Positions 4,799-42,734 of a DNA stretch of 53,744 bases are shown one piece after another (the stretch's first letter is position 1; the number at the start of each line of letters is the position of its first letter). Under the pieces are notes generated by a model, which saw nothing but the letters and a program-made list of their open reading frames with translations, was not told the origin of the DNA and did not search any database. The DNA is taken from the IMG/VR virus record IMGVR_UViG_3300022900_000014, positions 1-53,744 of that record; one strand, written 5' to 3'. Origin of the DNA: a virus. Taxonomy: Duplodnaviria > Caudoviricetes. A program made the position numbers and the translations under genes.

Positions 4799-5062
4799 TT
4801 ACCCCATATATATTTTTTGTAAGTGCGTTTCAAATTCTTCTACTTTGGCTAATCGATTCGGCCAAAGGATATATTCCTTTTCAGGATTCTTTTTTAGATT
4901 CGTTAGTAGCGGAACGATAGAATTATAAAGACTATCTATCTTTGCTTGAAGTTGCTCTACATCAGATGATGTTTGTTGAAGCTGTGTAGAGGCTTGTTGA
5001 ACTGCTTCTAATTCAGTTTCATCAACAGCAGTAAATCCAAAATCAAATATGTCTGTCATCAC
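4799..5062 (-). CDS. Hypothetical coiled-coil protein
   Basis: Tightly packed ORF. Confidence 0.65.
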   Translation of the reverse strand: MMTDIFDFGFTAVDETELEAVQQASTQLQQTSSDVEQLQAKIDSLYNSIVPLLTNLKKNPEKEYILWPNRLAKVEEFETHLQKIYMG

Positions 5063-5724
5063 GTATTCCTCTGTTTGTCAATCCACATTGTAGCTTGTTT
5101 ACTTTGTGGTTCAGCTTTTGACCATGTCATCATTTTCTTATATACGCTTTGAGTAGCTCCGTCAAAATTAGATCCATCAGAATTATCTACTACATAGAAT
5201 TTGCTCTTAAATAAGTTTTGAAACTTACCTATATTCTTTTGAACATCTTTCCACATAGCAGTAACCTGATCATCTGGCAGAGTCCTTTCGCGTTTAGCAT
5301 TACGAGCGAGTGCAGTATCTAAATCGGTATTTACAAATACCATTGCCACTTCGTATCCTAAAGCTCTAAGGTTAACTACTTGTCTTTCGATTTTGCTATA
5401 GTCTTTACCAGTACCATCAATAACTAATCCAAGTCGACCGCTTATAGCTAAGTCTAATTTCTTACCAGTAAGTTCTGATGCGCCTTTGCGAATCTGTTGA
5501 CCTTGTGGAGAGAATATAGTTTCTGGATCTGGAGTAAGACCAGCTTTTTTCAAAGCAGCTTCGAATGCGTTATCAGAATTAATTAGCTTAAATCCTAATG
5601 CAGGTAAAGCAGTTTTTCCAACAATAAAGGACTTACCAGATCCTGGTCCTCCTGCTAGAAAAACAGCTTTAAATATTGCGGGGTCATTAACCCCTTCTTC
5701 TAAGTATTCACTAAAAGATAACAT
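5059..5724 (-). CDS. P-loop kinase (zeta toxin/AAA_33-like)
   Basis: GGPGSGKS Walker A, VIDGT, lid motif RNAKRER; late promoter upstream. Confidence 0.8.
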   Translation of the reverse strand: MLSFSEYLEEGVNDPAIFKAVFLAGGPGSGKSFIVGKTALPALGFKLINSDNAFEAALKKAGLTPDPETIFSPQGQQIRKGASELTGKKLDLAISGRLGLVIDGTGKDYSKIERQVVNLRALGYEVAMVFVNTDLDTALARNAKRERTLPDDQVTAMWKDVQKNIGKFQNLFKSKFYVVDNSDGSNFDGATQSVYKKMMTWSKAEPQSKQATMWIDKQRNT

Positions 5725-7837: not shown

Positions 7838-8081
7838 TGATTGTGTTATTCCTTCCGGATCCAGATTTAATTTTCTGTTGAACCTCTTTCCATCCACCAT
7901 CAGTTTTAGAAAGTATTCCGCCGACTTGATATGATATGAGAGGCGCACCTATTTTTTGTGTTACAGATAATTTACCGCATTCTTCACATGGAACAGATTC
8001 TGGATCATTCCTTTCGGCGATCCTTTTTATTGCGGTAAACCCATGTCCGCATTCCTTACAATGATAATCATATGTTGGCAT
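7827..8081 (-). CDS. FmdB-family zinc ribbon protein
   Basis: MPTYDYHCKECGH...CEECG. Confidence 0.85.
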   Translation of the reverse strand: MPTYDYHCKECGHGFTAIKRIAERNDPESVPCEECGKLSVTQKIGAPLISYQVGGILSKTDGGWKEVQQKIKSGSGRNNTINVK

Positions 8082-8637
8082 TTTTATTTATCCTAAACCA
8101 TTCTGGAACTTCGCGTTTTGTCCAACGCATCTTAAACCTTTCCTGTTTAGTCTCATAAAATAATCGATAAGACTTTACTGGATCTTCTGGAAACATGCAT
8201 TCTGGATTCGACTTCATTGCTAACCTAAATGGAGTCATCGGTCCTTTTGGTATATTATCTGGTGCACTTCGAAGTGCCCATAGTACAGTTTCACTTTTAT
8301 GTAGCTTATTATATCTATGCCTGTATTCTAAGCATAATGCATACATATGTTCCCAATGCCATCGATAGTTCTCTTCTGATTCCATAGTCCAAAGAGTGCA
8401 TGGGTGATTGTAGTGTACGGCTTTGTAATATACGAGGTCGGCTTCGACATCATCAAGCACATAATGCTTAACCATGGTTTTGCCGGATTTTGAGGGTAGA
8501 CGTTCTAGAGTTCCGTCAAGAACTCGATGAGCAGTGGAGAGCATTTGACCACTCTCCACTATCATTTTTACGACGTGCTTATCGCACTGCAACTGGGCAG
8601 CTTTAGTAGGATCTTTATCTAATACAAAAATATTCAT
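8068..8637 (-). CDS. Pyrimidine-dimer DNA glycosylase-like protein
   Basis: MNIF...DKHVVKMIVESGQMLSTAH, HYNHPC. Confidence 0.7.
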   Translation of the reverse strand: MNIFVLDKDPTKAAQLQCDKHVVKMIVESGQMLSTAHRVLDGTLERLPSKSGKTMVKHYVLDDVEADLVYYKAVHYNHPCTLWTMESEENYRWHWEHMYALCLEYRHRYNKLHKSETVLWALRSAPDNIPKGPMTPFRLAMKSNPECMFPEDPVKSYRLFYETKQERFKMRWTKREVPEWFRINKNANI

Positions 8638-8644
8638 AATATAC

Positions 8645-8673
8645 ATTATACCACATTTTACGCCAAATGTAAA
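8645..8673 (-). promoter_or_regulatory. Sigma70-like promoter
   Basis: TTTACA-N17-TATAAT. Confidence 0.7.
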
Positions 8674-8694
8674 ATGGTTTTATCTTCTATTGAA

Positions 8695-8802
8695 TTAAAT
8701 TAATCCAGCAGAAGCAAAAGGTAAGGCAACTATTAAGATCATAGCAACTATAGGAAATAATACTCCCTTAACAGTTTCTAGAGCCAGTTCTCTCTTCTTC
8801 AT
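8695..8802 (-). CDS. 35-aa single-TM peptide (not in ORF track)
   Basis: AAGGAG RBS; MKKRELALETVKGVLFPIVAMILIVALPFASAGLI. Confidence 0.65.
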   Translation of the reverse strand: MKKRELALETVKGVLFPIVAMILIVALPFASAGLI

Positions 8803-8860
8803 TTAAATTTCTCCTTTATCCCTTGTGAGGATGTTAACGTGTGTTTGCTTGGTGTAGCAG

Positions 8861-8894
8861 TGGGCCCATTTGGTTATAAGGCGGTACCCATACC
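8861..8894 (-). repeat. Second copy of the 34-bp tmRNA 3' motif
   Basis: 33/34 identical to 9170-9203. Confidence 0.9.
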
Positions 8895-8905
8895 TTTATA
8901 GCTAC

Positions 8906-9136
8906 TTAATATTTGCCACCGGCATTACTTACAAAAGCATTCATTTCTTTGCAAAGCTCTTGAATATCCTGCATATTAGGATATGCTGGTAGATCCGGAT
9001 ACTCAACAGGGGTTCCTGCATCTTTCAATGCATGGTACCTGTCTATGACTTCATCCTTCTTTACATGATACTCGTCTACAAGTAAATTTTTTGCTTCCAT
9101 AAGCATATTAAATCTTAGTTCATACGGATTTGACAT
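8906..9136 (-). CDS. Hypothetical protein
   Basis: AAGGAG RBS before MSNPYELR. Confidence 0.7.
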   Translation of the reverse strand: MSNPYELRFNMLMEAKNLLVDEYHVKKDEVIDRYHALKDAGTPVEYPDLPAYPNMQDIQELCKEMNAFVSNAGGKY

Positions 9137-30285: not shown

Positions 30286-30482
30286 TAGATTACCTTAATA
30301 CCTTCTGCCCAATTCTCCGCAGCTGAGACTACATAACTTAAATGCTTACCAGGAAATTCTTCTTTCTGAATAAGCTTACCTGATTTATAATACTCTAACT
30401 TAAATATGTTACCTTCATTAATTACATGAACGCGCATATCAGGATCTTCATTATGCCACAACGAATACATTATACTAGACAT
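30285..30482 (-). CDS. Hypothetical protein
   Basis: Coupled ORF. Confidence 0.6.
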   Translation of the reverse strand: MSSIMYSLWHNEDPDMRVHVINEGNIFKLEYYKSGKLIQKEEFPGKHLSYVVSAAENWAEGIKVI

Positions 30483-31176
30483 ATTCTTCTCCTGCCAGTT
30501 CGCGAATCATAGGAAAAACTTTAGCAATCTCAGCCGCACACTCTCTTGCAATCTGGATGTGTTCCTTCTGAGTACCATTTGATGAGCGCAATTCTATATA
30601 ATGAACCCATGAACGTAACGTACCATTTACATACATTCTAGATATAGTATTGCCTTCCGGTAAAACCGCTCTGGCTTGTTCTTTCGCAATACCGTTTTCA
30701 ATAGCCCAGCGATACGCCATCTTTGCTTCATGTATTACTTGGTACTGAATTGCTTGCCAATCTTTTTGTAGTTGTTGCCCTTCTGGACCAGATAGCTCAT
30801 CGATGTCTATAGAGTTTTGACGGTTCGATGTATCTTGCAAACGTGCTTCACGCAACGTAAAATCTAAGTCTTCAGTTGGATCAGCATAACGTTGACTAAA
30901 CTCCTGAAAACTAAAACTACGATGGCGGAGTATCTGGCGTGCAATATCACGCGTAGTTTCAATTTCAACACAAGCTGACACCATTTCTAATGGAGACCAA
31001 TGCTTATGCTTAATAAGATACTTAACTAGCTTCTCGGCTGTCTTTGGATTACTTTGATTTGCGGGATTAGATACCCTAGCACAAAACGCAATAAGTTCTA
31101 GCAGACTTTTCTTATCAGGGTATTCTATATCAGGATCAACTGGAACCTGTGAATAGTTAATTAGTTTTGCTGTCAT
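30475..31176 (-). CDS. thyX: Flavin-dependent thymidylate synthase
   Basis: RHRSFSFQEFSQRY signature; EQARAVLP. Confidence 0.96.
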   Translation of the reverse strand: MTAKLINYSQVPVDPDIEYPDKKSLLELIAFCARVSNPANQSNPKTAEKLVKYLIKHKHWSPLEMVSACVEIETTRDIARQILRHRSFSFQEFSQRYADPTEDLDFTLREARLQDTSNRQNSIDIDELSGPEGQQLQKDWQAIQYQVIHEAKMAYRWAIENGIAKEQARAVLPEGNTISRMYVNGTLRSWVHYIELRSSNGTQKEHIQIARECAAEIAKVFPMIRELAGEEYV

Positions 31177-32546: not shown

Positions 32547-32895
32547 TGTTTTCCTTATTACCAATTGCGTAATTATCATTATCTAAAGCTTCAGTAATAA
32601 TACATTGAAGCATATCACCTAGATAGTTATTAAAGTCACTATCTGATTCTAAAAAAGTTTCATCAATACCAGAAGGAGCTTTATTAACAACGTACTCAAA
32701 AGATAGTGTTGCTTCATCTATGTCTGGATTAGTAGGTTCAGTTATTGCTATTTTTCCGTACGTGATGACTGTCCCAGAGTACTTACCCGTTAATATTTTG
32801 AATGAGTCATGATTAGAATTTTCAATAAATTCGATTCGTTCATAGTCATGTGTAGATATATTATACACTATATTCCCCTTCTTGTACAACATCAA
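32506..32895 (-). CDS. Hypothetical protein in the T4 gp40 position
   Basis: Lies between uvsX and 41; start may be GTG at 32868. Confidence 0.55.
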   Translation of the reverse strand: MMLYKKGNIVYNISTHDYERIEFIENSNHDSFKILTGKYSGTVITYGKIAITEPTNPDIDEATLSFEYVVNKAPSGIDETFLESDSDFNNYLGDMLQCIITEALDNDNYAIGNKENNDNPDDNFTKSIN

Positions 32896-33922
32896 CGCCT
32901 TCTATTTCAGAACGATAACCAATAGTATAGTGCTTCTTCACGAATTCTTTGAAGTCTTCATTAGCAAGGATTGGATCCCAGAATTCTGCAGTTAGCGTTT
33001 GTGCTTCACGAACTTTCGGTTCAATCATTTCACCTGTCTTTTTATCAATAGCTTGATACCAACCATTAGAAGGTTTAACAACATATCCACCAGCCATACC
33101 AACTTCAAGTAAGCCAGAGTATTTTTCTACGCCACCTTCCCATGATACTGTAACAGGAACCTTAGACTTTTCTTTTACGAATCGTGACTTTTCAACGTTG
33201 ATTACAAAGTCATATCCAGTTACTTCAGTACCTTTCTTATTTTGACGACGACCAAGAATCCATATAGTATCGGCAGAATAATAAATGCCTGTACCACCAG
33301 AAACAACAGCTTTAGGGAAGAGTCCAATCTCTTGATAAGTATGATTCACAGCAAGCATCGGAATATCTTTCATAGTCAAATAAGGAGTTGACATACGGAA
33401 GAGACCTTTGAGTGCTTTAGCACGAGACATATCAGCTACAGACTTTTCATTCATAGCATCTTCAAGTTCTTTCTTCGATGCAAGGTTACCGATAGAGTCA
33501 ATAACAACTATGACTTTATCTTCACGATCGATGGCTTCAAGCTGATTGATTAGATCGAATTTTAGTTCTTCAACGTTTGTGATAGGAGTATGAAGTACAC
33601 GAGAAACATCGATACCGAACGATTCGAAATACGCTTGAGGAGAACCAAACTCTGAATCATAAAACAACATAATAGAATCTGGATACTTTTGCATATATGC
33701 ACCTGCCATAAGTAACGCAAAAGAAGTTTTGAAATGCTTAGATGGACCAGCAAGAACTGTAAGACCAGGAGTTAATCCACCATCGACAGAACCAGAAAGC
33801 GCTACGTTTATCATAGGCACTTCAGTTGTAATCATATCCTTTTCAGCAAAGAATTTCGATTTTGAAAGAACTTCGGTATTAGCTAGCTTAGAGTTCTTTT
33901 TGAGTTTATCCATTATAGACAT
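32861..33922 (-). CDS. uvsX: RecA-like recombinase UvsX
   Basis: GPSKHFKT, YDSEFG, DSIGNLAS, SGGTG. Confidence 0.95.
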   Translation of the reverse strand: MSIMDKLKKNSKLANTEVLSKSKFFAEKDMITTEVPMINVALSGSVDGGLTPGLTVLAGPSKHFKTSFALLMAGAYMQKYPDSIMLFYDSEFGSPQAYFESFGIDVSRVLHTPITNVEELKFDLINQLEAIDREDKVIVVIDSIGNLASKKELEDAMNEKSVADMSRAKALKGLFRMSTPYLTMKDIPMLAVNHTYQEIGLFPKAVVSGGTGIYYSADTIWILGRRQNKKGTEVTGYDFVINVEKSRFVKEKSKVPVTVSWEGGVEKYSGLLEVGMAGGYVVKPSNGWYQAIDKKTGEMIEPKVREAQTLTAEFWDPILANEDFKEFVKKHYTIGYRSEIEGVDVVQEGEYSV

Positions 33923-33952: not shown

Positions 33953-33981
33953 ATTATACCATGAATTCGTCTAATTGTACA
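33953..33981 (-). promoter_or_regulatory. Sigma70-like promoter of uvsX
   Basis: TGTACA-N17-TATAAT. Confidence 0.75.
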
Positions 33982-34997
33982 CCGCTATTCTTTGGTGCAC
34001 CTTGCCTCTGTTCCCATCCAGAGTTCCATCCAGAATTGTTAGTAATTGTAGAAGGAACATGATCAAATGTATTATCAGAACGAGGGACATAGTTCTGACC
34101 AAATCTTACGAAGTCACACATAACATCTTCATTATCACGTGGCGCTCCACCTATACGCTCACACAGCAGATCCATGAATTCGTCTGTAGTATAACCAGAA
34201 GATAAAACTTTCATGCATCGTACAGCGTTATTACCAAAATATCCGTGGGACATATCATCCACAAGATCTTTATGATAATCACCTAGATCATATGAAAAAG
34301 CAGCATAGACAAAGTTAAATCGCTTATGACCTTCTCGAACGTTATGTTCATTCAAATAGTCGACGACTTGTTTGTGTGTTTTCTTTTCTCCAGCATGAAG
34401 CCAATCGATAAGCTCATCAAGAAGCTTAGGTAGCTCATCTGTCATAAAGTCAACGCAAGATACTCCTTTACGTGGACTCGGTGGTTGGTTACCAATAGAA
34501 GTAAACAACGCTTGGCCAGACGCTTTGCGTCGCTTAAGATCTTCTATCATTTCATCGATTGATGATAGCTTACCCCAATACTGAATTGCGTTATTACGAT
34601 AACCATGATCTCGCGTGAACGATGCACCTGAACCAGTTGTTCTATGGCACATATACGCAAACAGCCACGTTTTCAGATCCCATGTATCAGTAATATATGA
34701 GTCAACCAAGTCCCAATGATTCTTACCGAGTGAGGAATTATTTAACTGATGATGACGCTTTGGAGTATCTGATCTGTACTTTAAGTCCTGGAGTACGTTA
34801 GAAAATCCAGCAGCATTACGAGAGAAACAATCGTAGATATCTATCTGTTGCATAAGAGGGTCATTGACTGCAGCATTTGCTTCAGGACCAACGTATGACA
34901 GTTTTCCCCAGTTACAATTCTCTTGTAACCATTTAGCACGAGGATAATAATAATGTACTAATACGTCTAATGCTTCTTCATTTAGCCACTTTGCCAT
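33954..34997 (-). CDS. Putative aGPT-PPlase / HhH-fold DNA base hypermodification protein
   Basis: F...YDL, GNNAVRCM and EDVMCDFVRF resemble aGPT-PPlase motifs; gene context; start set at MAKW (track gives 35039). Confidence 0.5.
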   Translation of the reverse strand: MAKWLNEEALDVLVHYYYPRAKWLQENCNWGKLSYVGPEANAAVNDPLMQQIDIYDCFSRNAAGFSNVLQDLKYRSDTPKRHHQLNNSSLGKNHWDLVDSYITDTWDLKTWLFAYMCHRTTGSGASFTRDHGYRNNAIQYWGKLSSIDEMIEDLKRRKASGQALFTSIGNQPPSPRKGVSCVDFMTDELPKLLDELIDWLHAGEKKTHKQVVDYLNEHNVREGHKRFNFVYAAFSYDLGDYHKDLVDDMSHGYFGNNAVRCMKVLSSGYTTDEFMDLLCERIGGAPRDNEDVMCDFVRFGQNYVPRSDNTFDHVPSTITNNSGWNSGWEQRQGAPKNSGVQLDEFMV

Positions 34998-35938
34998 TAC
35001 TGAAAGAAATCCTCTAGTGTTGTTTCTGCTATACCCCAATTTTTTCTGCGATAAACTTCTGGACTCAGATGAACTGACTTAGGCTTCTCCATCTTTTCAT
35101 TTGCGTATTGCTCTGGATTCATTCTATACCATTCATCAGGAGCTTTGACAATATTCACTGAGTTATATAACATATACTCATAGATATCATCCACCAAGGC
35201 GGAACGTTCTTCATGCGATCCCCAAAATGGTTGGTCCTTATAGTATCCAGTCTTCGGTAGCTTTCTCCCTTCAAACTCGATTGGCCATGGTAATGAATAC
35301 TCGACTTCTATACCTAAGCTATTACCAAACTCAAAGAGAGCATCGTACATCGCTACCCAATCGCTATTCACACGTAAGAAATGATGACGAACATCTATAT
35401 TGCCTAAACTAATCGTTACACCTTTCCATGGCTTCTTATCAATATGATGACGAAGATATTCAAAGTTTGTTTTTACTTGATTGAAGAGTGTAGTGCCATC
35501 TTGTTTTACAACAGCACTATTGTTTCGTGAATACGCAGCGGTATGGCTATCACCAACAGCTAACCAATCAAAATTAAGATCAGACGAAACTAAAGTTTTT
35601 GCAGTAGATAACTTTGCAGTGATACGATCGCACCATGCCTTGTCTACTACATCCTTACGCTTCTTTAGCATTCCACCATAGTCAGGCATATCAATATCAA
35701 GAGAGATGATCTCATTGGCCTGGAGTAGGTTATTAATGCTAGCTTCAAGCTCTTCATCAAATCCACCAAATAGATTTAATGAACCACCGAAGTTTGCTCC
35801 ATGCAAAAGATAAACCTTGGAGTGAGCTTGATTACTAAAATCGATTTCTACTCCAAGGTTTTCTGACCAAGTTCTTGCCCAACCAAAGCTGTGGCTATTT
35901 TTCTTTTGTGCTATTTTTGTAAATGATCCAACTATCAT
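34997..35938 (-). CDS. SGNH/GDSL-fold protein with N-terminal domain resembling T4 beta-glucosyltransferase
   Basis: GDSH, GNID, SVHL blocks; SLNLFGG...DIDMP. Confidence 0.55.
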   Translation of the reverse strand: MIVGSFTKIAQKKNSHSFGWARTWSENLGVEIDFSNQAHSKVYLLHGANFGGSLNLFGGFDEELEASINNLLQANEIISLDIDMPDYGGMLKKRKDVVDKAWCDRITAKLSTAKTLVSSDLNFDWLAVGDSHTAAYSRNNSAVVKQDGTTLFNQVKTNFEYLRHHIDKKPWKGVTISLGNIDVRHHFLRVNSDWVAMYDALFEFGNSLGIEVEYSLPWPIEFEGRKLPKTGYYKDQPFWGSHEERSALVDDIYEYMLYNSVNIVKAPDEWYRMNPEQYANEKMEKPKSVHLSPEVYRRKNWGIAETTLEDFFQ

Positions 35939-36840
35939 TCCAGATTCTTATCCCAATCACGGTAACTATCAATGCGTTCATAAATTGTTTCATCGTGGAC
36001 TGGCGGCTCACAACCAACGTTCCAAAATAAAATATCTCTTCCGCTGTTCTTAGGTATATATGGCCACGCCTTTGCATCATATTGTGCAATGCATGGGAAT
36101 GGAGGCATTTGTTCCTGTTTTAACGGCGCGGTGAAGGCTAGCGGATGGCTTATGATTCGGTCATGTCCAACTTCACCAGCCTTCATGTTGCGAGCAACCG
36201 CAACGCCATAAAACTTTGCATTCGGCCATGCGATCTGCAATGACCGATGTAATACTCCAGTTGATAAGACTGTCCACACTTCTTCTGGTTCAGGAATTTG
36301 AGATGCAGTCTTTACAAACCCTGCAGTGACTAATTCATGCTTTAATCCTAATGGCACAAAGAATGCGTTAGGATTTTCATCTGCCCACTTCTTAGCAATT
36401 AGGTTTAGATTAGGCATCGCAGCAATACGATGGAAACTTACTTCTGCACCCTGTTCAATACATGCAGCTTGATGCGCACTGATCTTTTTAGAAGAAGGCA
36501 TGAATAGACGTACCTTCTTATTATGACGTTTTGCAACGTTAAGCAAAGATACACCGGCAAGTCCAAACCGTGGCTGAACATATACGATTGTATCGATATG
36601 CTCTGGTAGACTACTAATTAAGCAATCACCACCACGAATCTTTGAACCGACAATTAAGTCATCACGAACAACACGAACACCTTCATAAGTTTCAATAACA
36701 GGTGCAGGATTTGGATCCGTCCAATCTCCTGCAAGGTCAAGATAATACTTACGAGCATCTTCACGGCCGAAGACACCTTCCATAATTAAGCCATCAACAT
36801 CCTTATTGATATTATCGATAACGTGTTTATTATGCGACAT
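35935..36840 (-). CDS. PLP-dependent enzyme, fold type II (Trp synthase beta/cysteine synthase-like)
   Basis: VVRDD...GSKIR (Schiff-base Lys), STG phosphate loop, FWNVG. Confidence 0.8.
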   Translation of the reverse strand: MSHNKHVIDNINKDVDGLIMEGVFGREDARKYYLDLAGDWTDPNPAPVIETYEGVRVVRDDLIVGSKIRGGDCLISSLPEHIDTIVYVQPRFGLAGVSLLNVAKRHNKKVRLFMPSSKKISAHQAACIEQGAEVSFHRIAAMPNLNLIAKKWADENPNAFFVPLGLKHELVTAGFVKTASQIPEPEEVWTVLSTGVLHRSLQIAWPNAKFYGVAVARNMKAGEVGHDRIISHPLAFTAPLKQEQMPPFPCIAQYDAKAWPYIPKNSGRDILFWNVGCEPPVHDETIYERIDSYRDWDKNLE

Positions 36841-37275
36841 CTATTCTATCAATTCCCATTCAATTCCAGCTTCTTCAAACATTTGTATAGTTAACGCAAA
36901 TGATGCATTCCATCTCTTTGGAACACCATCGCAACGCATCACTACACGCTTTATACCAGTCTGAATAATTCCTTTAGCACATTCTGAACACACAGGAAGT
37001 CCTGTAACATATAACGTAGAACCATCAAGTGAAACTCCATTATATGTAGCATTATAGATCACATTCATTTCTGCATGCACTACATAGGTATACTTAGTTT
37101 CCTTATCGTTATACCGTTCTTTGCTATCGTCAATACCTCGAGGAAAGCCATTGTAACCTTGAGACAATATTTGTCCTTTGCTTCCAACAGCTACAGCACC
37201 GATTTTACGAGATGGATCCTTTGACCAAGAAGAAACATTTTCAGCTAGGTCTAGATATCGATTGTCCCACGTCAT
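36841..37275 (-). CDS. cd: dCMP deaminase
   Basis: SKDPS, GYNGFPRG, HAEMN, PVCSEC. Confidence 0.93.
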   Translation of the reverse strand: MTWDNRYLDLAENVSSWSKDPSRKIGAVAVGSKGQILSQGYNGFPRGIDDSKERYNDKETKYTYVVHAEMNVIYNATYNGVSLDGSTLYVTGLPVCSECAKGIIQTGIKRVVMRCDGVPKRWNASFALTIQMFEEAGIEWELIE

Positions 37276-37278
37276 ATA

Positions 37279-38022
37279 TTAATCCCAAAGATTTTGATAG
37301 TACTTTCCAAAGAGCCTAAAACCATTTTGAATTCTTGCTTCATACGCTTTACGCCCTTCCCAATCATACACTTTAGTATGATTAGGTCCTTCTATGAGTT
37401 GACTATTACCACCTTCCAGTTTCTTCCAAGCCATATCCCATTCACCAGACTCAAACTGATCTTCCCATTCATCATTAACTTTGCATTCAAACGCAAAGAT
37501 CATTTCGTTAAGTACCCAGTTCCATTGATCTTCACCAATTGAAATATCTTCTGGATTACAAACTTTGTTATTAAATAAACTAAGCTGTGAACTATATTCA
37601 TCGTTGTGATCAATAAGTCTTAGATTTTCAGGTACATCTTCAATATCAACATGAGAATACCCATGTTTACTATCGCGTAACTGCTTGAGCATAGGAAGCG
37701 CAATAAGAGCAAGGGTATTATCCATACTCCAAGTGTCCCAGCGATCAATATGTATTTCAATCTTTTGCTTCTTCTTGCTGTCAATCCAACTTAGAAAGTT
37801 ATATAGCCAAGTGTGTGGACGATCTCCCCATTTTTGAATTTCACCTAATTCTGGTTCAGGCTCTATACTACCGTGAGCAAGCCACTCGCCAAAGTGGTGT
37901 ACACGATCAGCAGGCTGCTCAAACCCATACTCATCTTTTTCCTTTGGTACCCAAAACATCAACTTTTCAGCCAGTTGATAAGGACCAAACCAATCTTTAT
38001 AAGGACCAATATAGACTTTCAT
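37279..38022 (-). CDS. Trp-rich hypothetical protein
   Basis: DTWSMD...GFRLFGKYYQNLWD. Confidence 0.7.
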   Translation of the reverse strand: MKVYIGPYKDWFGPYQLAEKLMFWVPKEKDEYGFEQPADRVHHFGEWLAHGSIEPEPELGEIQKWGDRPHTWLYNFLSWIDSKKKQKIEIHIDRWDTWSMDNTLALIALPMLKQLRDSKHGYSHVDIEDVPENLRLIDHNDEYSSQLSLFNNKVCNPEDISIGEDQWNWVLNEMIFAFECKVNDEWEDQFESGEWDMAWKKLEGGNSQLIEGPNHTKVYDWEGRKAYEARIQNGFRLFGKYYQNLWD

Positions 38023-38023
38023 A

Positions 38024-38686
38024 TTATTTTACTAAGTCAAAATGACGTTCATATACGTGCAAGTTTTGAACTTGCCATGTGATAGTTCCTGGACGAACTC
38101 CAGTTGCTGCGGCAAGTTGATTTAATACTTCACGTTGCCATGCATAATCATTCTTATAACCATACACTGCATCATTAGATCGCATTTGTACTACAGCATG
38201 CAATCGAGTACGCACATAATATGTGACAGCATTAGTGCATATAAAATCGGATTTACCATGTTCGTCAAATTCAAGCCACATAGAAGGACGCGTATAGACT
38301 ATAGTAGCGCGTCGTCCATCTGGATTATTACGTAATTCTCTTAATGCATTATTGTATTGAGAAAAATACTTTTTGGACCAAATGAGATGTCCATAGTTAG
38401 AATTAATTTCACCATACTTATTTGCTGAATATTTCCAAGCAGCAGGCGGTTCTCTACCATCTGTATAGATGTCATTAATATTGGTTGATTGCGATTTATA
38501 CCAAGCAATTTCATTATTGATATAATCAACATTTGGTGTACCGAAAATTGCAGGTTCATCTGCAGTAAAAGATGCACCAATAAGTTCGATAGTGTTTTGT
38601 CCGTTCTTATCTACAGTAAAGGATTGATTTTTTAATTCGTTAATAAAATACGAACGAATATCACTTACTGTCATATGCATTATCAA
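38024..38686 (-). CDS. 42: dCMP hydroxymethylase-like protein (T4 gp42 family)
   Basis: NSNYG, DFICT (catalytic Cys), MRSNDAVYGYKND (Asp at the specificity position), NLHVYERH. Confidence 0.88.
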   Translation of the reverse strand: MIMHMTVSDIRSYFINELKNQSFTVDKNGQNTIELIGASFTADEPAIFGTPNVDYINNEIAWYKSQSTNINDIYTDGREPPAAWKYSANKYGEINSNYGHLIWSKKYFSQYNNALRELRNNPDGRRATIVYTRPSMWLEFDEHGKSDFICTNAVTYYVRTRLHAVVQMRSNDAVYGYKNDYAWQREVLNQLAAATGVRPGTITWQVQNLHVYERHFDLVK

Positions 38687-40561: not shown

Positions 40562-40939
40562 CTATGCTTCCGGATCGACTGGGGCTACCTGGTGAGGAGC
40601 CTTTGTTCTATTAAGGAAGTCTTTATTCGGATCCTGACCTGGAATCTTGCCGCGGGCATACGCCACACCGAATGAGGCATAATTGATTAGGTCTTTGAAC
40701 GAGTCTTCTACCGATTCGAAGTTTGGTTCATAGGTAGGATCATTCTCCATAGCTTCTAGTACAGACCATAATCGTAGAGTCTTAGTATGAATAATATCCA
40801 TCAATGACGCAATACCACGTGGATAGTAATCAGCTTGAACGATTCGTGAGTTTTCATTCTGATAGTCACGAGATTTCCTGTCTTGAAGTTCAGCACATTC
40901 TTGAAGTACTTTTATTGATTCACGCATAGTGTTCTCCAT
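40562..40939 (-). CDS. Nucleotide-modification-associated (Nmad1/DUF1599-like) protein
   Basis: RKSRDY...K..R...ESVEDSFKDLINYA. Confidence 0.6.
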   Translation of the reverse strand: MENTMRESIKVLQECAELQDRKSRDYQNENSRIVQADYYPRGIASLMDIIHTKTLRLWSVLEAMENDPTYEPNFESVEDSFKDLINYASFGVAYARGKIPGQDPNKDFLNRTKAPHQVAPVDPEA

Positions 40940-41383: not shown

Positions 41384-42312
41384 AGATTCGTATACACAAA
41401 TTCGATTGCTCGATTTGCTTCAGTATCAAGTGGTCTATTCTCATACCAATTACCAGTTTCAAGATCTAGCTCTTTACATAGATCTACAATTTCTTGAGTG
41501 GTGATCGGATATTTTTGCTTTACTGCATTTGCTGCGATTGATACCATGAGTTGATACATCTTATGATACCAACCGGTTTCAGATATTGTCTTATATTCTA
41601 AAACCAACTTCTTACTAACGAATGGACAATTAGTATAAGAAGTCCATCTAATATTAGTATTATCCATTTGCTCTTTACGATGTGCAATCAATTGCTTTTG
41701 CATTTCTTCCGGTAAGGAATCAAACAGCGTATTGCCGGTTTTCTTTTGTGCATACGGATGCTTTATAAGAAGAGCATTGACATCAATATCATCGCCTGGA
41801 TTACTGAAAATAAAGTTGTTAGAATCAGCATAGTTCGCAGGGATGTAATACATTCGTGAAACGTCTTTAGTTTGCTTATCTCCCATCGAGTCAAGTTCGG
41901 TATTGAGGGCATACCAGAAATGTTGTATTTTGTCCGATTCAATGCTCCTATTAAGACTGAAGACAAGTCTGAACTTCGGCTTATCAATACTTGAACTTGC
42001 CGTAGAATAGCAAATATACTTCCAAGAATTATTAATGCGAGTATTAAGTACATCTCGTAGATTCTCCATTGTGCAATCTAAATCATCAACATCAACTGCT
42101 GCCCAACCACACCACTTCTCTACATTCTTATTAGCGCGTGTAGTGCCATCATGATATACTGCTGGAGATATTAGTTGTGCATCTTTTTTATTTTTTACGT
42201 CGATTTTAGATAATGAATACAGCAAATCCTCGAACTCGCTCCAAGAATTGAAGTCCATTCGACGATTCGTTTTATTATCCCAATGTGATTTGAATAGCGT
42301 AAGTGAATACAT
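41380..42312 (-). CDS. AEP/prim-pol-like protein
   Basis: VDVDD, YSTASS, KFRLV, KDVSRMYYIP. Confidence 0.6.
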   Translation of the reverse strand: MYSLTLFKSHWDNKTNRRMDFNSWSEFEDLLYSLSKIDVKNKKDAQLISPAVYHDGTTRANKNVEKWCGWAAVDVDDLDCTMENLRDVLNTRINNSWKYICYSTASSSIDKPKFRLVFSLNRSIESDKIQHFWYALNTELDSMGDKQTKDVSRMYYIPANYADSNNFIFSNPGDDIDVNALLIKHPYAQKKTGNTLFDSLPEEMQKQLIAHRKEQMDNTNIRWTSYTNCPFVSKKLVLEYKTISETGWYHKMYQLMVSIAANAVKQKYPITTQEIVDLCKELDLETGNWYENRPLDTEANRAIEFVYTNL

Positions 42313-42734
42313 TACTTAAATGTTCGTGGTAAAAATCCATGATTGCCAGAATGATCCGGTGCTTTCCATTCTTTTGGTTTGATCAGATCCGGTAGTCCGA
42401 GTGGATTTGGACGTGATTCTTTTACACCAACCTCTTTAGCCATGTTTGCAGCATGCACACGATCCCATGCTTGATATGCATCAATACCAAACGAATCAAG
42501 TGTACCAATAGCAACAACGCACAGATCAATAAGACCGTCTACAATTTCTTCTGGATCTTTTACACCAGCTGCATTAATAGTTTCAGTTAGCTCTTCATCT
42601 AAGAACGCAAGACGAAACTTAAGGAATGCCTGAAGCTTTTCGACATCGCTATTGATAATTTTTTCTGATACCCATTCATGCACACCGTATTTTTTGTGCA
42701 TGTCATTGATATCTTGCACCCAATCTTTACTCAT
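42312..42734 (-). CDS. MazG-like NTP pyrophosphohydrolase
   Basis: EELTE...EIVDGLID, ANMAK, KP. Confidence 0.8.
   Translation of the reverse strand: MSKDWVQDINDMHKKYGVHEWVSEKIINSDVEKLQAFLKFRLAFLDEELTETINAAGVKDPEEIVDGLIDLCVVAIGTLDSFGIDAYQAWDRVHAANMAKEVGVKESRPNPLGLPDLIKPKEWKAPDHSGNHGFLPRTFK

What the first reader, a model, noticed from the sequence alone, without database searches (positions are those of the whole stretch)
34997..35938. Possible glucosyltransferase acceptor domain fused to an SGNH domain: a DNA O-acyltransferase?
Seen: N-terminal SLNLFGG (aa 53-59) and SLDIDMP (aa 79-85); C-terminal SGNH blocks GDSH, G, GNID, SVH. From my recollection of T4 BGT, its hmC-flipping N-terminal domain has SINFFGG and TDIRLP (catalytic Asp100) at similar spacing. 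Inference: the sugar-donor domain has been replaced by an SGNH domain, a fold that includes O-acyltransferases such as PatB and OatA. This suggests acyl transfer to the hmC hydroxyl. The resemblance is by eye and covers only two short motifs.
Basis: inference. Interest (0 to 1): 0.8.

Follow-up and report, generated by a model that had tools for sequence, protein, structure and literature searches.

The report
Glucosyltransferase-derived SGNH enzyme for phage DNA
A marine T4-like phage carries a gene whose front half descends from the DNA-binding half of T4's DNA glucosyltransferase and whose back half is an esterase/acyltransferase-type domain, sitting in a gene set that probably turns hydroxymethylcytosine in the phage DNA into a new, still unidentified modified base.

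Summary
Residues 1-97 are homologous to residues 1-118 of T4 beta-glucosyltransferase (BGT): profile-profile probability 97%, E 2.6e-11, score 72 against 9-17 for 20 shuffles. Residues 121-305 have an SGNH fold (Z 11.4). Ser131 and His290 are invariant, but the canonical block III Asn and block V Asp are missing.

The gene lies in the slot that b-gt occupies in T4, between a gene-42-type dCMP hydroxymethylase (51% identical, Cys148 and Asp179 kept) and uvsX. It is translationally coupled to a homologue of the M6 gp52 PLP decarboxylase and to a 347-aa protein. That protein keeps the Glu-x3-Cys signature of aGPT-Pplase/amino-acid:DNA transferases and is fused to this protein in other phages. All 31 of 31 related loci with enough flank carry that partner.

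Best reading (about 0.45): it O-acylates 5-hydroxymethylcytosine in DNA, taking the role of the 5-hmdU DNA kinase, so that the partner can substitute a nucleophile. The chemistry is inferred and was not tested. The cultured carriers are Aeromonas phages 44RR, 31 and 25, which have gene 42 but no glucosyltransferase, so the idea can be tested directly.

The parts
34997..35938 (-). The target gene, 313 aa (P0001): a BGT-like N-domain joined to an SGNH-fold C-domain. The family has no Pfam or NCBIfam model (phrog_13881, unknown function).
35579..35938 (-). N-domain, aa 1-120. It is homologous to residues 1-118 of T4 beta-glucosyltransferase, the acceptor/DNA side of that GT-B enzyme.
   Evidence: hhalign with controls. 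AF2 model pLDDT 91.6. Top VIA-align hit 1c3j_A, Z 4.8.
35762..35782 (-). SLNLFGG, aa 53-59, aligned to BGT SINFFGG 68-74. Asn55 is kept in 110 of 111 relatives and Gly59 in 107 of 111. BGT Asn70, Gly73 and Gly74 are invariant in 35 of 35.
35684..35704 (-). SLDIDMP, aa 79-85, aligned to BGT YLFTDIRLP; Asp81 falls on BGT Asp100 and Pro85 on Pro104. There is an acidic residue at position 81 in 82 of 111 relatives, and at 81 or 83 in 100 of 111.
35000..35578 (-). C-domain, aa 121-313, with an SGNH/GDSL fold. GDSH is at 129-132 (Ser131 and His132 in 111 of 111). G-[NS]-I-D-x-R-H-H is at 179-186 (Asp182 and Arg184 in 111 of 111). Arg225, Arg245 and His290 are in 111 of 111.
33954..34997 (-). Partner gene, 347 aa (p347). 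Its ATG shares one base with the target's stop codon. Glu290-x3-Cys294 is invariant. It is probably a divergent aGPT-Pplase/amino-acid:DNA-transferase relative, and it is fused to the target family in other phages.
35935..36840 (-). PLP-dependent enzyme, 301 aa, fold type II. It is a homologue of Pseudomonas phage M6 gp52, the PLP decarboxylase that acts on amino-acid-modified DNA. Its stop overlaps the target's start by 4 nt.
36841..37275 (-). dCMP deaminase, 144 aa.
38024..38686 (-). Gene-42-type dCMP hydroxymethylase, 220 aa, 51% identical to T4 gp42, with Cys148 and Asp179 conserved.
32861..33922 (-). UvsX recombinase, the downstream boundary of the slot. In T4 the order is 42, b-gt, segA, uvsX.

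Best explanation
The protein is a chimera. Its first ~120 residues descend from the acceptor (DNA / 5-hydroxymethylcytosine) side of the T4-type DNA beta-glucosyltransferase. The UDP-glucose-binding half has been replaced by an SGNH-fold domain that keeps an invariant Ser-His pair.

I propose that it binds a flipped-out 5-hydroxymethylcytosine in newly replicated phage DNA, as BGT does. It would then transfer an acyl group from the Ser131 acyl-enzyme onto the 5-CH2OH oxygen, with the acidic residue at 81/83 acting as the base. The donor is unknown; an acyl-CoA or another cytoplasmic ester is the first guess, and three invariant arginines suggest an anionic donor or DNA-backbone contacts.

The ester would not be the end product but a leaving group, the counterpart of the phosphate that 5-hmdU DNA kinase installs in thymidine hypermodification. 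The translationally coupled 347-aa partner (Glu290-x3-Cys294) would attack C6, expel the acyloxy group and add a nucleophile such as an amino acid. The M6 gp52-like PLP enzyme would then decarboxylate the appended amino acid. Loci without the PLP gene would stop one step earlier.

Shown here: the domain homologies, the fold, the conserved residues, the gene-42 context, and the gene linkage and fusions. Inferred: DNA as substrate, hmC rather than hmU, acyl transfer, the donor, and the order of steps.
For: 1. N-domain homology to BGT 1-118 is supported by profile-profile comparison: probability 89-97%, E 2.2e-6 to 2.6e-11. All controls score 9-18 against 52.6 and 72.2. Profile-to-sequence hits run both ways, with best E 3e-6 in 43 BGT sequences and 1.3e-5 in 269 family sequences. 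BGT is the top structural hit of 48,161 chains for the isolated N-domain, although weakly.

2. The BGT N-side residues that are invariant in 35 of 35 (Asn70, Gly73, Gly74, Asp100) align with Asn55, Gly58, Gly59 and Asp81. Asn55 is kept in 110 of 111 relatives and Gly59 in 107 of 111.

3. The C-domain has an SGNH fold (Z 11.4; peptidoglycan O-acetyltransferases PatB Z 9.6 and OatA Z 8.9 are among the matches). Ser131 and His290 are kept in 111 of 111.

4. Context. A gp42 orthologue keeps Cys148 and Asp179. The position matches that of T4 b-gt.

5. Linkage. Of 31 related IMG/VR loci with at least 3 kb on both sides, 31 have p347 within 5 kb, 24 the PLP gene, 27 the gp42-like gene and 26 cd, and the gene order is shuffled between loci.

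6. Fusions. The target is fused to p347 in P0198, P0174, P0254 and P0252 (E 5e-73 to 6e-60). It is fused to HMUDK_hel (aGPT-Pplase clade 1, 43.1 bits against a cut-off of 25) in P0224. This mirrors the kinase-transferase fusions described for thymidine pathways in PMC8989533 (passages read).

7. The PLP enzyme is homologous to M6 gp52 (E 1e-9 over 274 columns; same phrog_7093).

8. p347's Glu290-x3-Cys294 aligns with the invariant Glu243/Cys247 of clade 2 transferases and with the Cys-Glu region of clade 1. Cys247 is the C6 nucleophile of PaMx11 gp46 in PMC11472151 (passages read).

9. No P-loop 5-hmdU DNA kinase reaches its cut-off in the window, so another activating enzyme is needed.

10. 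The only cultured carriers are Aeromonas phages of the 44RR/31/25 type and Stenotrophomonas phage IME13. PMC2993671 lists 44RR, 31 and 25 as having gene 42, alc and denB but no glucosyltransferase (passages read).
Against: - No activity, donor or product is known; acyl transfer is inferred from the fold alone.
- The SGNH domain is atypical. Ile or Val stands where the block III oxyanion Asn should be (Ile in 100 of 111, Val in 11), and the residue three before His290 is variable. A different chemistry, or a binding role like that of the Oskar OSK domain (Z 9.4), is possible.
- Asp81 is not invariant: position 81 is acidic in 82 of 111 relatives, and 11 of 111 have no acid at 81 or 83.
- Structural support for the BGT link is weak. 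Z is 4.8, no chain reaches Z>=5, and a TIR domain is tied at 4.7. Foldseek finds no BGT in the PDB (best E 0.19) or in BFVD.
- Pfam's BGT N-domain model PF09198 finds nothing in the window at E<=1.
- The homology of p347 to aGPT-Pplases is weak (E 0.015 and 0.022, probabilities 2-3%). It exceeds all 20 shuffles each time, but by little (25.8 against a maximum of 21.5; 24.6 against 17.4). No Pfam hit was found in 28 members.
- All characterised relatives of the PLP enzyme and of the aGPT-Pplases act on hmU derivatives, not hmC. The tightly linked dCMP deaminase leaves open that hm-dCMP is deaminated and the substrate is hmU.
- A P-loop kinase-like ORF lies elsewhere in the window (5059-5724; 12.6 bits to PF18748, below the cut-off). 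Its relatives occur in Pelagibacter phage HTVC008M and the Melnitz phages, which did not appear among the carriers of the target.
- Aeromonas phage 44RR has no PLP homologue at E<=0.01.
Confidence: 0.45

Rival explanations
1. Terminal O-acylation. The enzyme acylates the hmC hydroxyl, and 5-acyloxymethylcytosine is itself the protective modification, playing the role of glucose in T4. The partner and the PLP enzyme would do something else, for example make the donor.
For: The architecture evidence is the same. The gene occupies the b-gt slot. Seven of the 31 well-flanked loci, and Aeromonas phage 44RR, lack the PLP gene.
Against: The partner is present in 31 of 31 well-flanked loci and is fused to the enzyme in at least four protein clusters. 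It carries the Glu-x3-Cys signature of enzymes that substitute a leaving group at the C5-methylene. From general chemistry, an ester of a benzylic-type hydroxymethylpyrimidine is labile and would be a poor permanent mark.
Confidence: 0.13
2. Same pathway role but different chemistry. The SGNH-fold domain transfers a non-acyl group such as phosphoryl. Alternatively it only holds DNA or a donor while the partner does the catalysis.
For: Arg184, Arg225 and Arg245, together with His132 and His186, are invariant or nearly so, which suits an anionic ligand. The canonical oxyanion Asn and the triad Asp are absent. The family takes the architectural place of the P-loop kinase next to HMUDK_hel in P0224. 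The non-catalytic, RNA-binding OSK domain is among the fold matches.
Against: Ser131 and His290, the SGNH nucleophile and base, are kept in 111 of 111. That is unexpected for a purely binding domain. As far as I recall, no SGNH-fold phosphotransferase is known.
Confidence: 0.15
3. Hydrolase role. The SGNH domain removes an ester-linked group, so the enzyme trims or edits a modified base or a modified nucleotide instead of adding anything.
For: Most SGNH members among the fold matches are esterases.
Against: No enzyme that would first install an ester was found in the module. A BGT-type acceptor domain binds the unmodified hydroxymethyl base. The pathway otherwise lacks an activating step.
Confidence: 0.1
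4. Unrelated to DNA modification: a general esterase/lipase with an N-terminal Rossmann-like appendage. On this view the BGT resemblance is convergent or reflects only a common fold.
For: Structural similarity of the N-domain to BGT is no better than to TIR domains. Foldseek and Pfam PF09198 do not see it.
Against: The profile-profile score lies far outside all controls. The gene is linked with gp42, cd, the PLP enzyme and p347, and is fused to HMUDK_hel and p347.
Confidence: 0.04

Closest known systems
T4 DNA beta-glucosyltransferase (b-gt; Pfam PF09198; PDB 1c3j)
   Same: The first ~97 residues are homologous to BGT 1-118, including the N-x-F-G-G loop and the D-x-x-x-P strand end. The genomic slot, between gene 42 and uvsX, is the same. 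The presumed substrate is hydroxymethylcytosine in DNA.
   Different: There is no UDP-glucose-binding C-domain. The BGT C-side invariants (Arg191, Arg269, Glu272) have no counterpart, and the target's C-domain scores only 19.4 against the BGT profile. An SGNH fold stands there instead. The N-domain is shorter, about 120 aa against a 167-position Pfam model.
SGNH-fold O-acyltransferases PatB and OatA, and SGNH esterases
   Same: The fold matches (PatB 7tjb Z 9.6, OatA 6vjp Z 8.9, esterases up to Z 11.4). The GDS serine and the C-terminal histidine are conserved.
   Different: The protein has no sequence-detectable membership: no Pfam hit for it and no PDB sequence hit. The block III Asn and block V Asp are missing. 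Three invariant arginines are added. The context is cytoplasmic and DNA-linked instead of the cell envelope, and there is no MBOAT/AT3 partner.
5-hmdU DNA kinase (5-HMUDK; PF18748 with PF18723) of phages M6, ViI, PaMx11 and PhiW-14
   Same: The proposed pathway role is the same: put a leaving group on the 5-hydroxymethyl of a pyrimidine in DNA. The partners are the same (an aGPT-Pplase-type protein and a PLP decarboxylase), and so is the tendency to be fused to them.
   Different: The fold is unrelated: there is no P-loop, and PF18748 reaches only 12.6 bits, on a different ORF. The probable base is hmC instead of hmU, and the proposed group is acyl instead of phosphoryl.
Amino-acid:DNA transferase (aGPT-Pplase clade 2, PF18724; M6 gp51, PaMx11 gp46) and aGPT-Pplase clade 1 (PF18723; M6 gp55): comparison for the 347-aa partner
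   Same: The invariant Glu-x3-Cys near the C-terminus aligns with Glu243/Cys247. ESM Atlas neighbour clusters carry PF18723 or PF18724. The partner also co-occurs with an M6 gp52-like PLP enzyme.
   Different: No member reaches any Pfam threshold. The profile-profile E-values are only 0.015 and 0.022. With the same thin alignments, clade 1 against clade 2 gives score 34.9. If related, it is a new, distant clade.

Membership tests
T4-type DNA beta-glucosyltransferase (GT-B; PF09198) | N-terminal acceptor domain with the conserved N-x-F-G-G and T-D-x-x-L-P elements | tested here: met
   hhalign gives probability 89-97%, E 2.2e-6 to 2.6e-11, with the motifs in register and clean controls. The structural match is weak (Z 4.8).
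T4-type DNA beta-glucosyltransferase (GT-B; PF09198) | C-terminal Rossmann domain that binds UDP-glucose (BGT invariants Gly188, Arg191, Arg269, Glu272) | tested here: not met
   The C-domain has an SGNH fold. The C-domain profile against the BGT profile scores 19.4, E 0.072.
T4-type DNA beta-glucosyltransferase (GT-B; PF09198) | A match to the Pfam model above its cut-off | tested here: not met
   The protein has no Pfam hit at E<=0.1. PF09198 finds nothing in the window at E<=1.
SGNH/GDSL hydrolase superfamily | Three-layer alpha/beta/alpha SGNH fold | tested here: met
   VIA-align Z 11.4 (4rsh_A, rmsd 3.1, 153 aligned), with 53 chains at Z>=8. Foldseek E 2.3e-5.
SGNH/GDSL hydrolase superfamily | Block I GDS nucleophile Ser and block V catalytic His | tested here: met
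   Ser131 and His290 are kept in 72 of 72 and 111 of 111 relatives. Assigning them to these blocks rests on motif order and secondary structure, not on a residue-level superposition.
SGNH/GDSL hydrolase superfamily | Block III G-x-N-D oxyanion Asn and block V D-x-x-H Asp | tested here: not met
   The block reads G-[NS]-I-D, with Ile in 100 and Val in 11 of 111 at the Asn position. Position 287, three residues before His290, is variable (R/S/G/K/Q). Glu284 (109 of 111) and Glu221 (106 of 111) could substitute.
SGNH/GDSL hydrolase superfamily | A match to Pfam Lipase_GDSL models above the cut-off | tested here: not met
   P0001 has none. Two relatives have sub-threshold hits to PF00657 (E 0.038 and 0.02, about 15 bits against a cut-off of 23.6).
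Hydroxymethylpyrimidine hypermodification system (5-HMUDK / aGPT-Pplase / PLP type) | A thymidylate-synthase-family hydroxymethylase that supplies the hydroxymethyl base | tested here: met
   A gp42 orthologue is present, 51% identical to T4 gp42, with Cys148 and Asp179. It is the dCMP type, not the dUMP type.
Hydroxymethylpyrimidine hypermodification system (5-HMUDK / aGPT-Pplase / PLP type) | P-loop 5-hmdU DNA kinase | tested here: not met
   The best PF18748 match in the window is 12.6 bits (cut-off 27), at 5161-5358 in an unlinked ORF. The window is only about 30% of a genome, so absence from the phage is not shown.
Hydroxymethylpyrimidine hypermodification system (5-HMUDK / aGPT-Pplase / PLP type) | An aGPT-Pplase / amino-acid:DNA transferase with catalytic Cys and neighbouring Glu | tested here: inconclusive
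   p347 has the invariant Glu290-x3-Cys294 aligned to Glu243/Cys247, but the E-values are only 0.015-0.022. There is no Pfam hit. The ESM Atlas neighbours are a lead only.
Hydroxymethylpyrimidine hypermodification system (5-HMUDK / aGPT-Pplase / PLP type) | An M6 gp52-type PLP enzyme | tested here: met
   BLASTP E 1e-9, 24% identity over 274 columns, including the C-terminal PFPC...YD.KAW...FWN.G stretch. Both fall in phrog_7093. The PALP hit is 29.7 bits, below the cut-off of 35.

The most novel reading that the evidence does not exclude
[quoted passage not shown] A beta-glucosyltransferase-derived SGNH chimera O-acylates 5-hydroxymethylcytosine in DNA. A fourth, divergent aGPT-Pplase clade then replaces the acyloxy group with an amino acid or amine through a Cys-C6 adduct, and a gp52-like PLP enzyme decarboxylates the product. 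This would be the first SGNH enzyme acting on a nucleobase, the first ester-activated DNA base intermediate, and the first amino-acid-type hypermodification built on hmC instead of hmU.
Probability: 0.3. Interest if true: 0.88.

Novelty: new variant of a known kind. Interest (0 to 1): 0.76.

Why it matters
Phage DNA hypermodification pathways are the source of several enzyme activities on polymeric DNA: glucosyltransferases, the nucleobase kinase, amino-acid:DNA transferases and PLP decarboxylases. This family would add a new activating enzyme made by domain swapping from a glucosyltransferase. It would also carry amino-acid-type chemistry from thymine over to cytosine.

The family is large. 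It is entirely unannotated.

It also bears on a question left open in 2010 (PMC2993671): what phages that have gene 42, alc and denB but no glucosyltransferase do with their hydroxymethylcytosine. Because cultured Aeromonas phages carry the fused form, the question can be answered with nucleoside mass spectrometry and a simple in-vitro assay. The product could also matter for restriction evasion and for enzymatic labelling of 5hmC.

Tried and rejected
- A pairwise BLASTP of P0001 against T4 BGT found nothing significant.
- A profile search of all PDB sequences with the family found only two chance hits at E 0.25 and 0.74.
- Foldseek with the N-domain model found no hit at E<=0.001 in the PDB. 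In BFVD it found only the family's own members.
- An ESM Atlas search with residues 1-120 gave no usable hit.
- For the partner p347 there was no Pfam, NCBIfam or PHROG hit and no PDB sequence hit. Its profile against the single sequences of M6 gp51 and gp55, and against the extra parts of the fusion proteins P0122, P0224, P0215, P0032, P0130, P0148 and P0240, gave nothing.
- Complex prediction for the target with p347 gave no verdict (ipSAE 0.00 in both runs). This counts neither for nor against binding.
- A search of GTDB genome contigs failed with the alignment, which had no searchable pattern. With the single protein it found no close relative. That method sees only close relatives, so it says little.
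- PF18723 and PF18724 searches of the window gave nothing, or a spurious 13-bit match inside the clamp-loader gene.
- I first considered that the module acts on hmU, because of the dCMP deaminase and the thymidine-pathway relatives. I now rate hmC higher because of gp42 Asp179 and the BGT ancestry, but hmU is not excluded.
- I considered that the P-loop ORF at 5059-5724 is the missing kinase. I rated this low because its relatives are in Pelagibacter phage HTVC008M and the Melnitz phages, which do not carry the target.
- Literature: no paper holds 'SGNH' together with 'hydroxymethylcytosine' and 'bacteriophage', and none of the listed papers holds both 'aGPT-Pplase' and 'SGNH'. The library lacks most subscription journals, and supplements were not open. 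The supplementary contig tables of PMC8989533 could mention this gene family and I could not see them.
Full report
WHAT IS THERE. The finding's coordinates hold one ORF on the minus strand, 34997..35938, ATG start, 313 aa (P0001). The plus strand is closed by stop codons.

The window is a 53.7-kb fragment of a T4-like phage from IMG/VR, with an estimated completeness of 30% and 38% G+C. Its replication genes all lie on the minus strand: DNA polymerase, clamp and clamp loader, RegA, gp41 helicase and UvsX.

The target has no Pfam or NCBIfam hit. It belongs to phrog_13881, of unknown function (E 1e-56).

THE FAMILY. The word-indexed search found 381 relatives at E<=0.001 among 960 candidates. 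None of the 120 listed carries a Pfam domain or a name other than 'hypothetical protein'. The exhaustive search found 365 clusters at 50% identity with E<=1e-3, of which 62 have E<=1e-30.

Among 50,697 phage records only 40 have a match: 38 Aeromonas phages and 2 records of Stenotrophomonas phage IME13. Identities are 25-32% and all are annotated as hypothetical. In those records the homologous part is the first ~330 residues of a 795-aa protein, ORF233c of Aeromonas phage 44RR2.8t.

C-TERMINAL DOMAIN. AlphaFold2 with a 72-sequence alignment gave a confident model (pLDDT 95.9, pTM 0.91). Residues about 121-305 match SGNH/GDSL structures:
- Foldseek gave 5 hits at E<=0.001, the best being 4s1p at 2.3e-5.
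- VIA-align against 48,161 representative chains gave 4rsh_A at Z 11.4 (rmsd 3.1, 153 aligned) and 53 chains at Z>=8. These include the peptidoglycan O-acetyltransferases PatB (7tjb, Z 9.6) and OatA (6vjp, Z 8.9). They also include the non-catalytic OSK domain (5a4a, Z 9.4).

Across 111 diverse relatives the following are invariant: Gly129, Ser131, His132, Asp182, Arg184, Arg225, Arg245 and His290 (the same in 72 of 72). The domain is atypical. The block III motif reads G-[N/S]-I-D, so the usual oxyanion Asn is Ile or Val. The residue three before His290 is variable, so there is no D-x-x-H. Glu284 (109 of 111) or Glu221 (106 of 111) might serve as the acid instead.

N-TERMINAL DOMAIN AND BGT. 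I took T4 b-gt from NC_000866. The comparisons run from weak to strong:
- Pairwise BLASTP is not significant.
- The family profile against the single BGT sequence is weak (E 0.0025).
- The family profile A1 against a 35-sequence BGT family alignment (A3) gives probability 89.2%, E 2.2e-6 over 95 columns, P0001 1-94 on BGT 1-115.
- The N-domain columns alone give 94.4%, E 8.6e-8, score 52.6. The C-domain columns give nothing (score 19.4).
- A shallower 22-sequence N-domain alignment gave E 5.2e-4 over 29 columns.
- An independent alignment of 111 representatives, none closer than 50% to another, gives 97.3%, E 2.6e-11, score 72.2 over 99 columns.

The controls are clean. Reversed profiles score 16.4-16.8 and 20 column shuffles 10.2-17.4. 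Twenty further shuffles score 9.0-17.3. Unrelated real families (A4, A5, A6 and the protein's own C-domain) score 11.1-18.2. Profile-to-sequence searches also connect the two families: best E 3e-6 among 43 BGT sequences and 1.3e-5 among 269 family sequences, with low bit scores of 18-19.

The alignment puts Asn55, Gly58 and Gly59 on BGT Asn70, Gly73 and Gly74. It puts Asp81 on Asp100, Pro85 on Pro104 and Arg94 on Arg115. The BGT residues Asn70, Gly73, Gly74, Thr99 and Asp100 are invariant in 35 of 35. I could not verify it in a paper here; PMC13216743, of which I read passages only, does not mention it.

The structural test is consistent but weak. The isolated N-domain folds confidently (pLDDT 91.6). 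Its best match among 48,161 chains is T4 BGT itself: 1c3j_A residues 4-139, Z 4.8, rmsd 3.4, 96 aligned. But no chain reaches Z 5, a TIR domain follows at 4.7, and T4 alpha-GT is at 3.5. Foldseek finds no BGT in the PDB (best E 0.19) or in BFVD, where only family members match. Pfam's PF09198 finds nothing in the window.

I conclude that homology to the acceptor-side half of BGT is probable (about 0.85). This rests mainly on profile comparison. Asp81 is less conserved than a catalytic base should be. Position 81 is acidic in 82 of 111 relatives, positions 81 or 83 in 100 of 111, and 11 have neither in this alignment.

CONTEXT. Transcription runs through these genes in order:
- a gp42-like gene (38024-38686);
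- an unknown 247-aa gene (37279-38022);
- dCMP deaminase (36841-37275);
- a PLP enzyme (35935-36840);
- the target (34997-35938);
- a 347-aa gene, p347 (33954-34997);
- uvsX (32861-33922), then gp41 and thyX.

The PLP stop overlaps the target's start by 4 nt. The target's stop shares one base with the ATG of p347; the lengths of p347 homologues (338-348 aa) support that start.

In T4 the order is 43, imm, 42, b-gt, segA, uvsX, 40, 41, so the target lies in the b-gt slot. The thymidylate-synthase-like gene is a gene 42 orthologue. Its best phage hits are T4-like dCMP hydroxymethylases at 48-54% identity. It is 51% identical to T4 gp42, and Cys148 and Asp179 are invariant in the six aligned sequences. 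That these two residues mark the dCMP-specific enzyme is recalled knowledge. It falls far below NCBIfam's thymidylate synthase cut-offs, and the phage has ThyX for dTMP.

THE MODULE. I mapped the window's proteins onto 80 related IMG/VR loci. Of the 31 loci with at least 3 kb on both sides of the target:
- 31 have p347 within 5 kb;
- 24 have the PLP gene (missing in L006, L008, L010, L014, L053, L077, L078);
- 27 have the gp42-like gene;
- 26 have cd.

Over all 80 loci, many of them cut at contig ends, the counts are 58, 55, 48 and 50. The gene order differs between loci (target-PLP-p347, p347-PLP-target, target-p347), which argues for functional rather than merely inherited linkage.

Fusions say the same. 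The C-terminal parts of P0198 (790 aa), P0174 (719), P0254 (740) and P0252 (759) match the p347 profile at E 4.7e-73 to 6.4e-60, and P0242 matches at 4.7e-11. P0224 (981 aa) combines an FkbM methyltransferase domain, HMUDK_hel (PF18723, E 4.5e-11, 43.1 bits, cut-off 25) and the target domain at 698-970. The Aeromonas 795-aa protein has a sub-threshold PF18723 hit in its C-terminal part (E 0.0036).

THE NEIGHBOURS. The PLP enzyme is homologous to M6 gp52 (E 1e-9, 24% identity over 274 columns) and falls in the same PHROG. PMC8989533, of which I read passages only, lists gp52 as a PLP-dependent decarboxylase, gp51 as a glycine:DNA transferase and gp54 as the 5-hmdU DNA kinase. It also describes natural fusions of the kinase with the PLP enzyme and the transferase. 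In current Pfam, M6 gp51 is ADDT (PF18724), gp54 is HMUDK_HMUD1 and gp55 is HMUDK_hel, the former aGPT-Pplase clade 1.

p347 has no Pfam hit in any of 28 members. Its ESM Atlas neighbours include clusters in which 13-51% of members carry PF18723 or PF18724 (a lead only). Profile-profile comparison with small alignments that I built for the two known clades gave:
- clade 1 (10 sequences): score 25.8, E 0.015;
- clade 2 (7 sequences): score 24.6, E 0.022.

Each score is above all 20 shuffles (maxima 21.5 and 17.4). With the same alignments, the accepted relatives clade 1 and clade 2 reach only 34.9. Both alignments place p347's invariant Glu290-x3-Cys294 on the conserved Glu-x3-Cys of the aGPT-Pplases. 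Cys247 is the C6 nucleophile in PaMx11 gp46 (PMC11472151, passages read). The Cys and the neighbouring Glu are essential in M6 gp51 and ViI gp247 (PMC8989533, passages read). So p347 is plausibly a distant aGPT-Pplase clade, but this is not proven.

No P-loop 5-hmdU kinase reaches its cut-off in the window. The one 12.6-bit match lies in an unlinked P-loop ORF at 5059-5724. Its relatives are in Pelagibacter phage HTVC008M and the Methylophilales Melnitz phages, which are not among the carriers of the target.

MECHANISM. Putting this together, the module has four of the parts known from thymidine hypermodification: a hydroxymethylase, a candidate base-substituting transferase, a PLP decarboxylase, and, in place of the kinase, the target. 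The target combines a domain that in BGT presents the hydroxymethyl oxygen of a flipped base for attack with a domain whose relatives form acyl-serine intermediates. The simplest reading is O-acylation of the hydroxymethyl group as an activation step, followed by substitution and decarboxylation.

The steps that are shown are the homologies, the fold, the conserved residues, the linkage and the fusions. The rest is inference: DNA as substrate, hmC against hmU, acyl against another group, the donor, and the order of steps.

Points against this reading:
- the atypical SGNH active site;
- the imperfect conservation of Asp81;
- the weak structural link to BGT and the weak sequence link of p347;
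- the fact that every characterised relative of the PLP enzyme and of the aGPT-Pplases works on hmU.

The abstract of PMC4111573, seen in the listing, says T4 BGT also glucosylates 5hmU in single-stranded DNA and opposite G. A BGT-type pocket therefore does not exclude hmU.

WHAT IS KNOWN. PMC2993671 (passages read) states that Aeromonas phages 44RR, 31 and 25 encode genes 42 and 56 plus alc, denA and denB, but no glucosyltransferase. [quoted passage not shown] These are the cultured phages that carry the fused form of this protein. PMC8056088 (passages read) lists other candidate modification genes for Aeromonas phages, but in the passages shown not this one.

I found no paper that joins SGNH with hydroxymethylcytosine and bacteriophage, or with aGPT-Pplase. 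Supplements were closed, and the library lacks most subscription journals.

VERDICT. It probably needs reframing as an activation step within a three-enzyme hmC hypermodification module. This is a new variant of a known kind of system, built around a new domain combination. It is widespread in marine T4-like phages and can be tested in cultured Aeromonas phages.

Noticed in passing
window 37279-38022 (-): A 247-aa ORF (phrog_11543, unknown function, E 3.1e-47) sits between the gp42-like gene and dCMP deaminase. None of the 80 related loci has a homologue near the module, so it looks like an insertion specific to this phage lineage.
   Followed up: partly
window 5059-5724 (-): A P-loop kinase-like ORF, 221 aa (phrog_12810; weak polynucleotide-kinase and sub-threshold 5-hmdU-kinase similarity, 12.6 bits). 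Its relatives at 47-51% identity are in Pelagibacter phage HTVC008M and the Methylophilales Melnitz phages. This also hints at which phage group the window belongs to.
   Followed up: partly
window 40562-40939 (-): A 125-aa ORF with a sub-threshold hit to DUF1599, 'Nucleotide modification associated domain 1' (E 3.1e-4, 21.5 bits, cut-off 25). Homologues lie upstream of the gp42-like gene in many of the related loci.
   Followed up: no
L001 4399-5922 (Aeromonas phage 44RR2.8t): The fused 795-aa homologue lies directly downstream of a phage-encoded sodium:solute symporter-family gene. That could be a substrate importer for the modification, or unrelated.
   Followed up: no
proteins P0224, P0130, P0032, P0148, P0240, P0215: There are further architectures of the family. 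P0224 has an FkbM-type methyltransferase, HMUDK_hel and the target domain. P0130 has a Tudor-like N-terminal domain (PF21743, E 2.2e-5, below the cut-off). P0032, P0148, P0240 and P0215 carry unexplained extensions of 118-220 aa.
   Followed up: partly
L060 8001-8955: In one related contig the homologue is split into two adjacent ORFs (8001-8582 and 8593-8955). This may be a frameshift, a sequencing error or a pseudogene.
   Followed up: no
window 33954-35039 (-): The mechanical ORF list starts the partner gene at a TTG (35039) that overlaps the target by 43 nt. Homologue lengths (338-348 aa) point to the ATG at 34997, which shares one base with the target's stop codon.
   Followed up: yes
window 30475-31176 (-) and 38024-38686 (-): The phage encodes both ThyX (TIGR02170, E 1e-44) and a gene-42-type hydroxymethylase, with a MazG-type pyrophosphohydrolase at 42312-42734 next to the DNA polymerase gene. 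Whether MazG plays the role of the T4 gp56 dCTPase was not examined.
   Followed up: no
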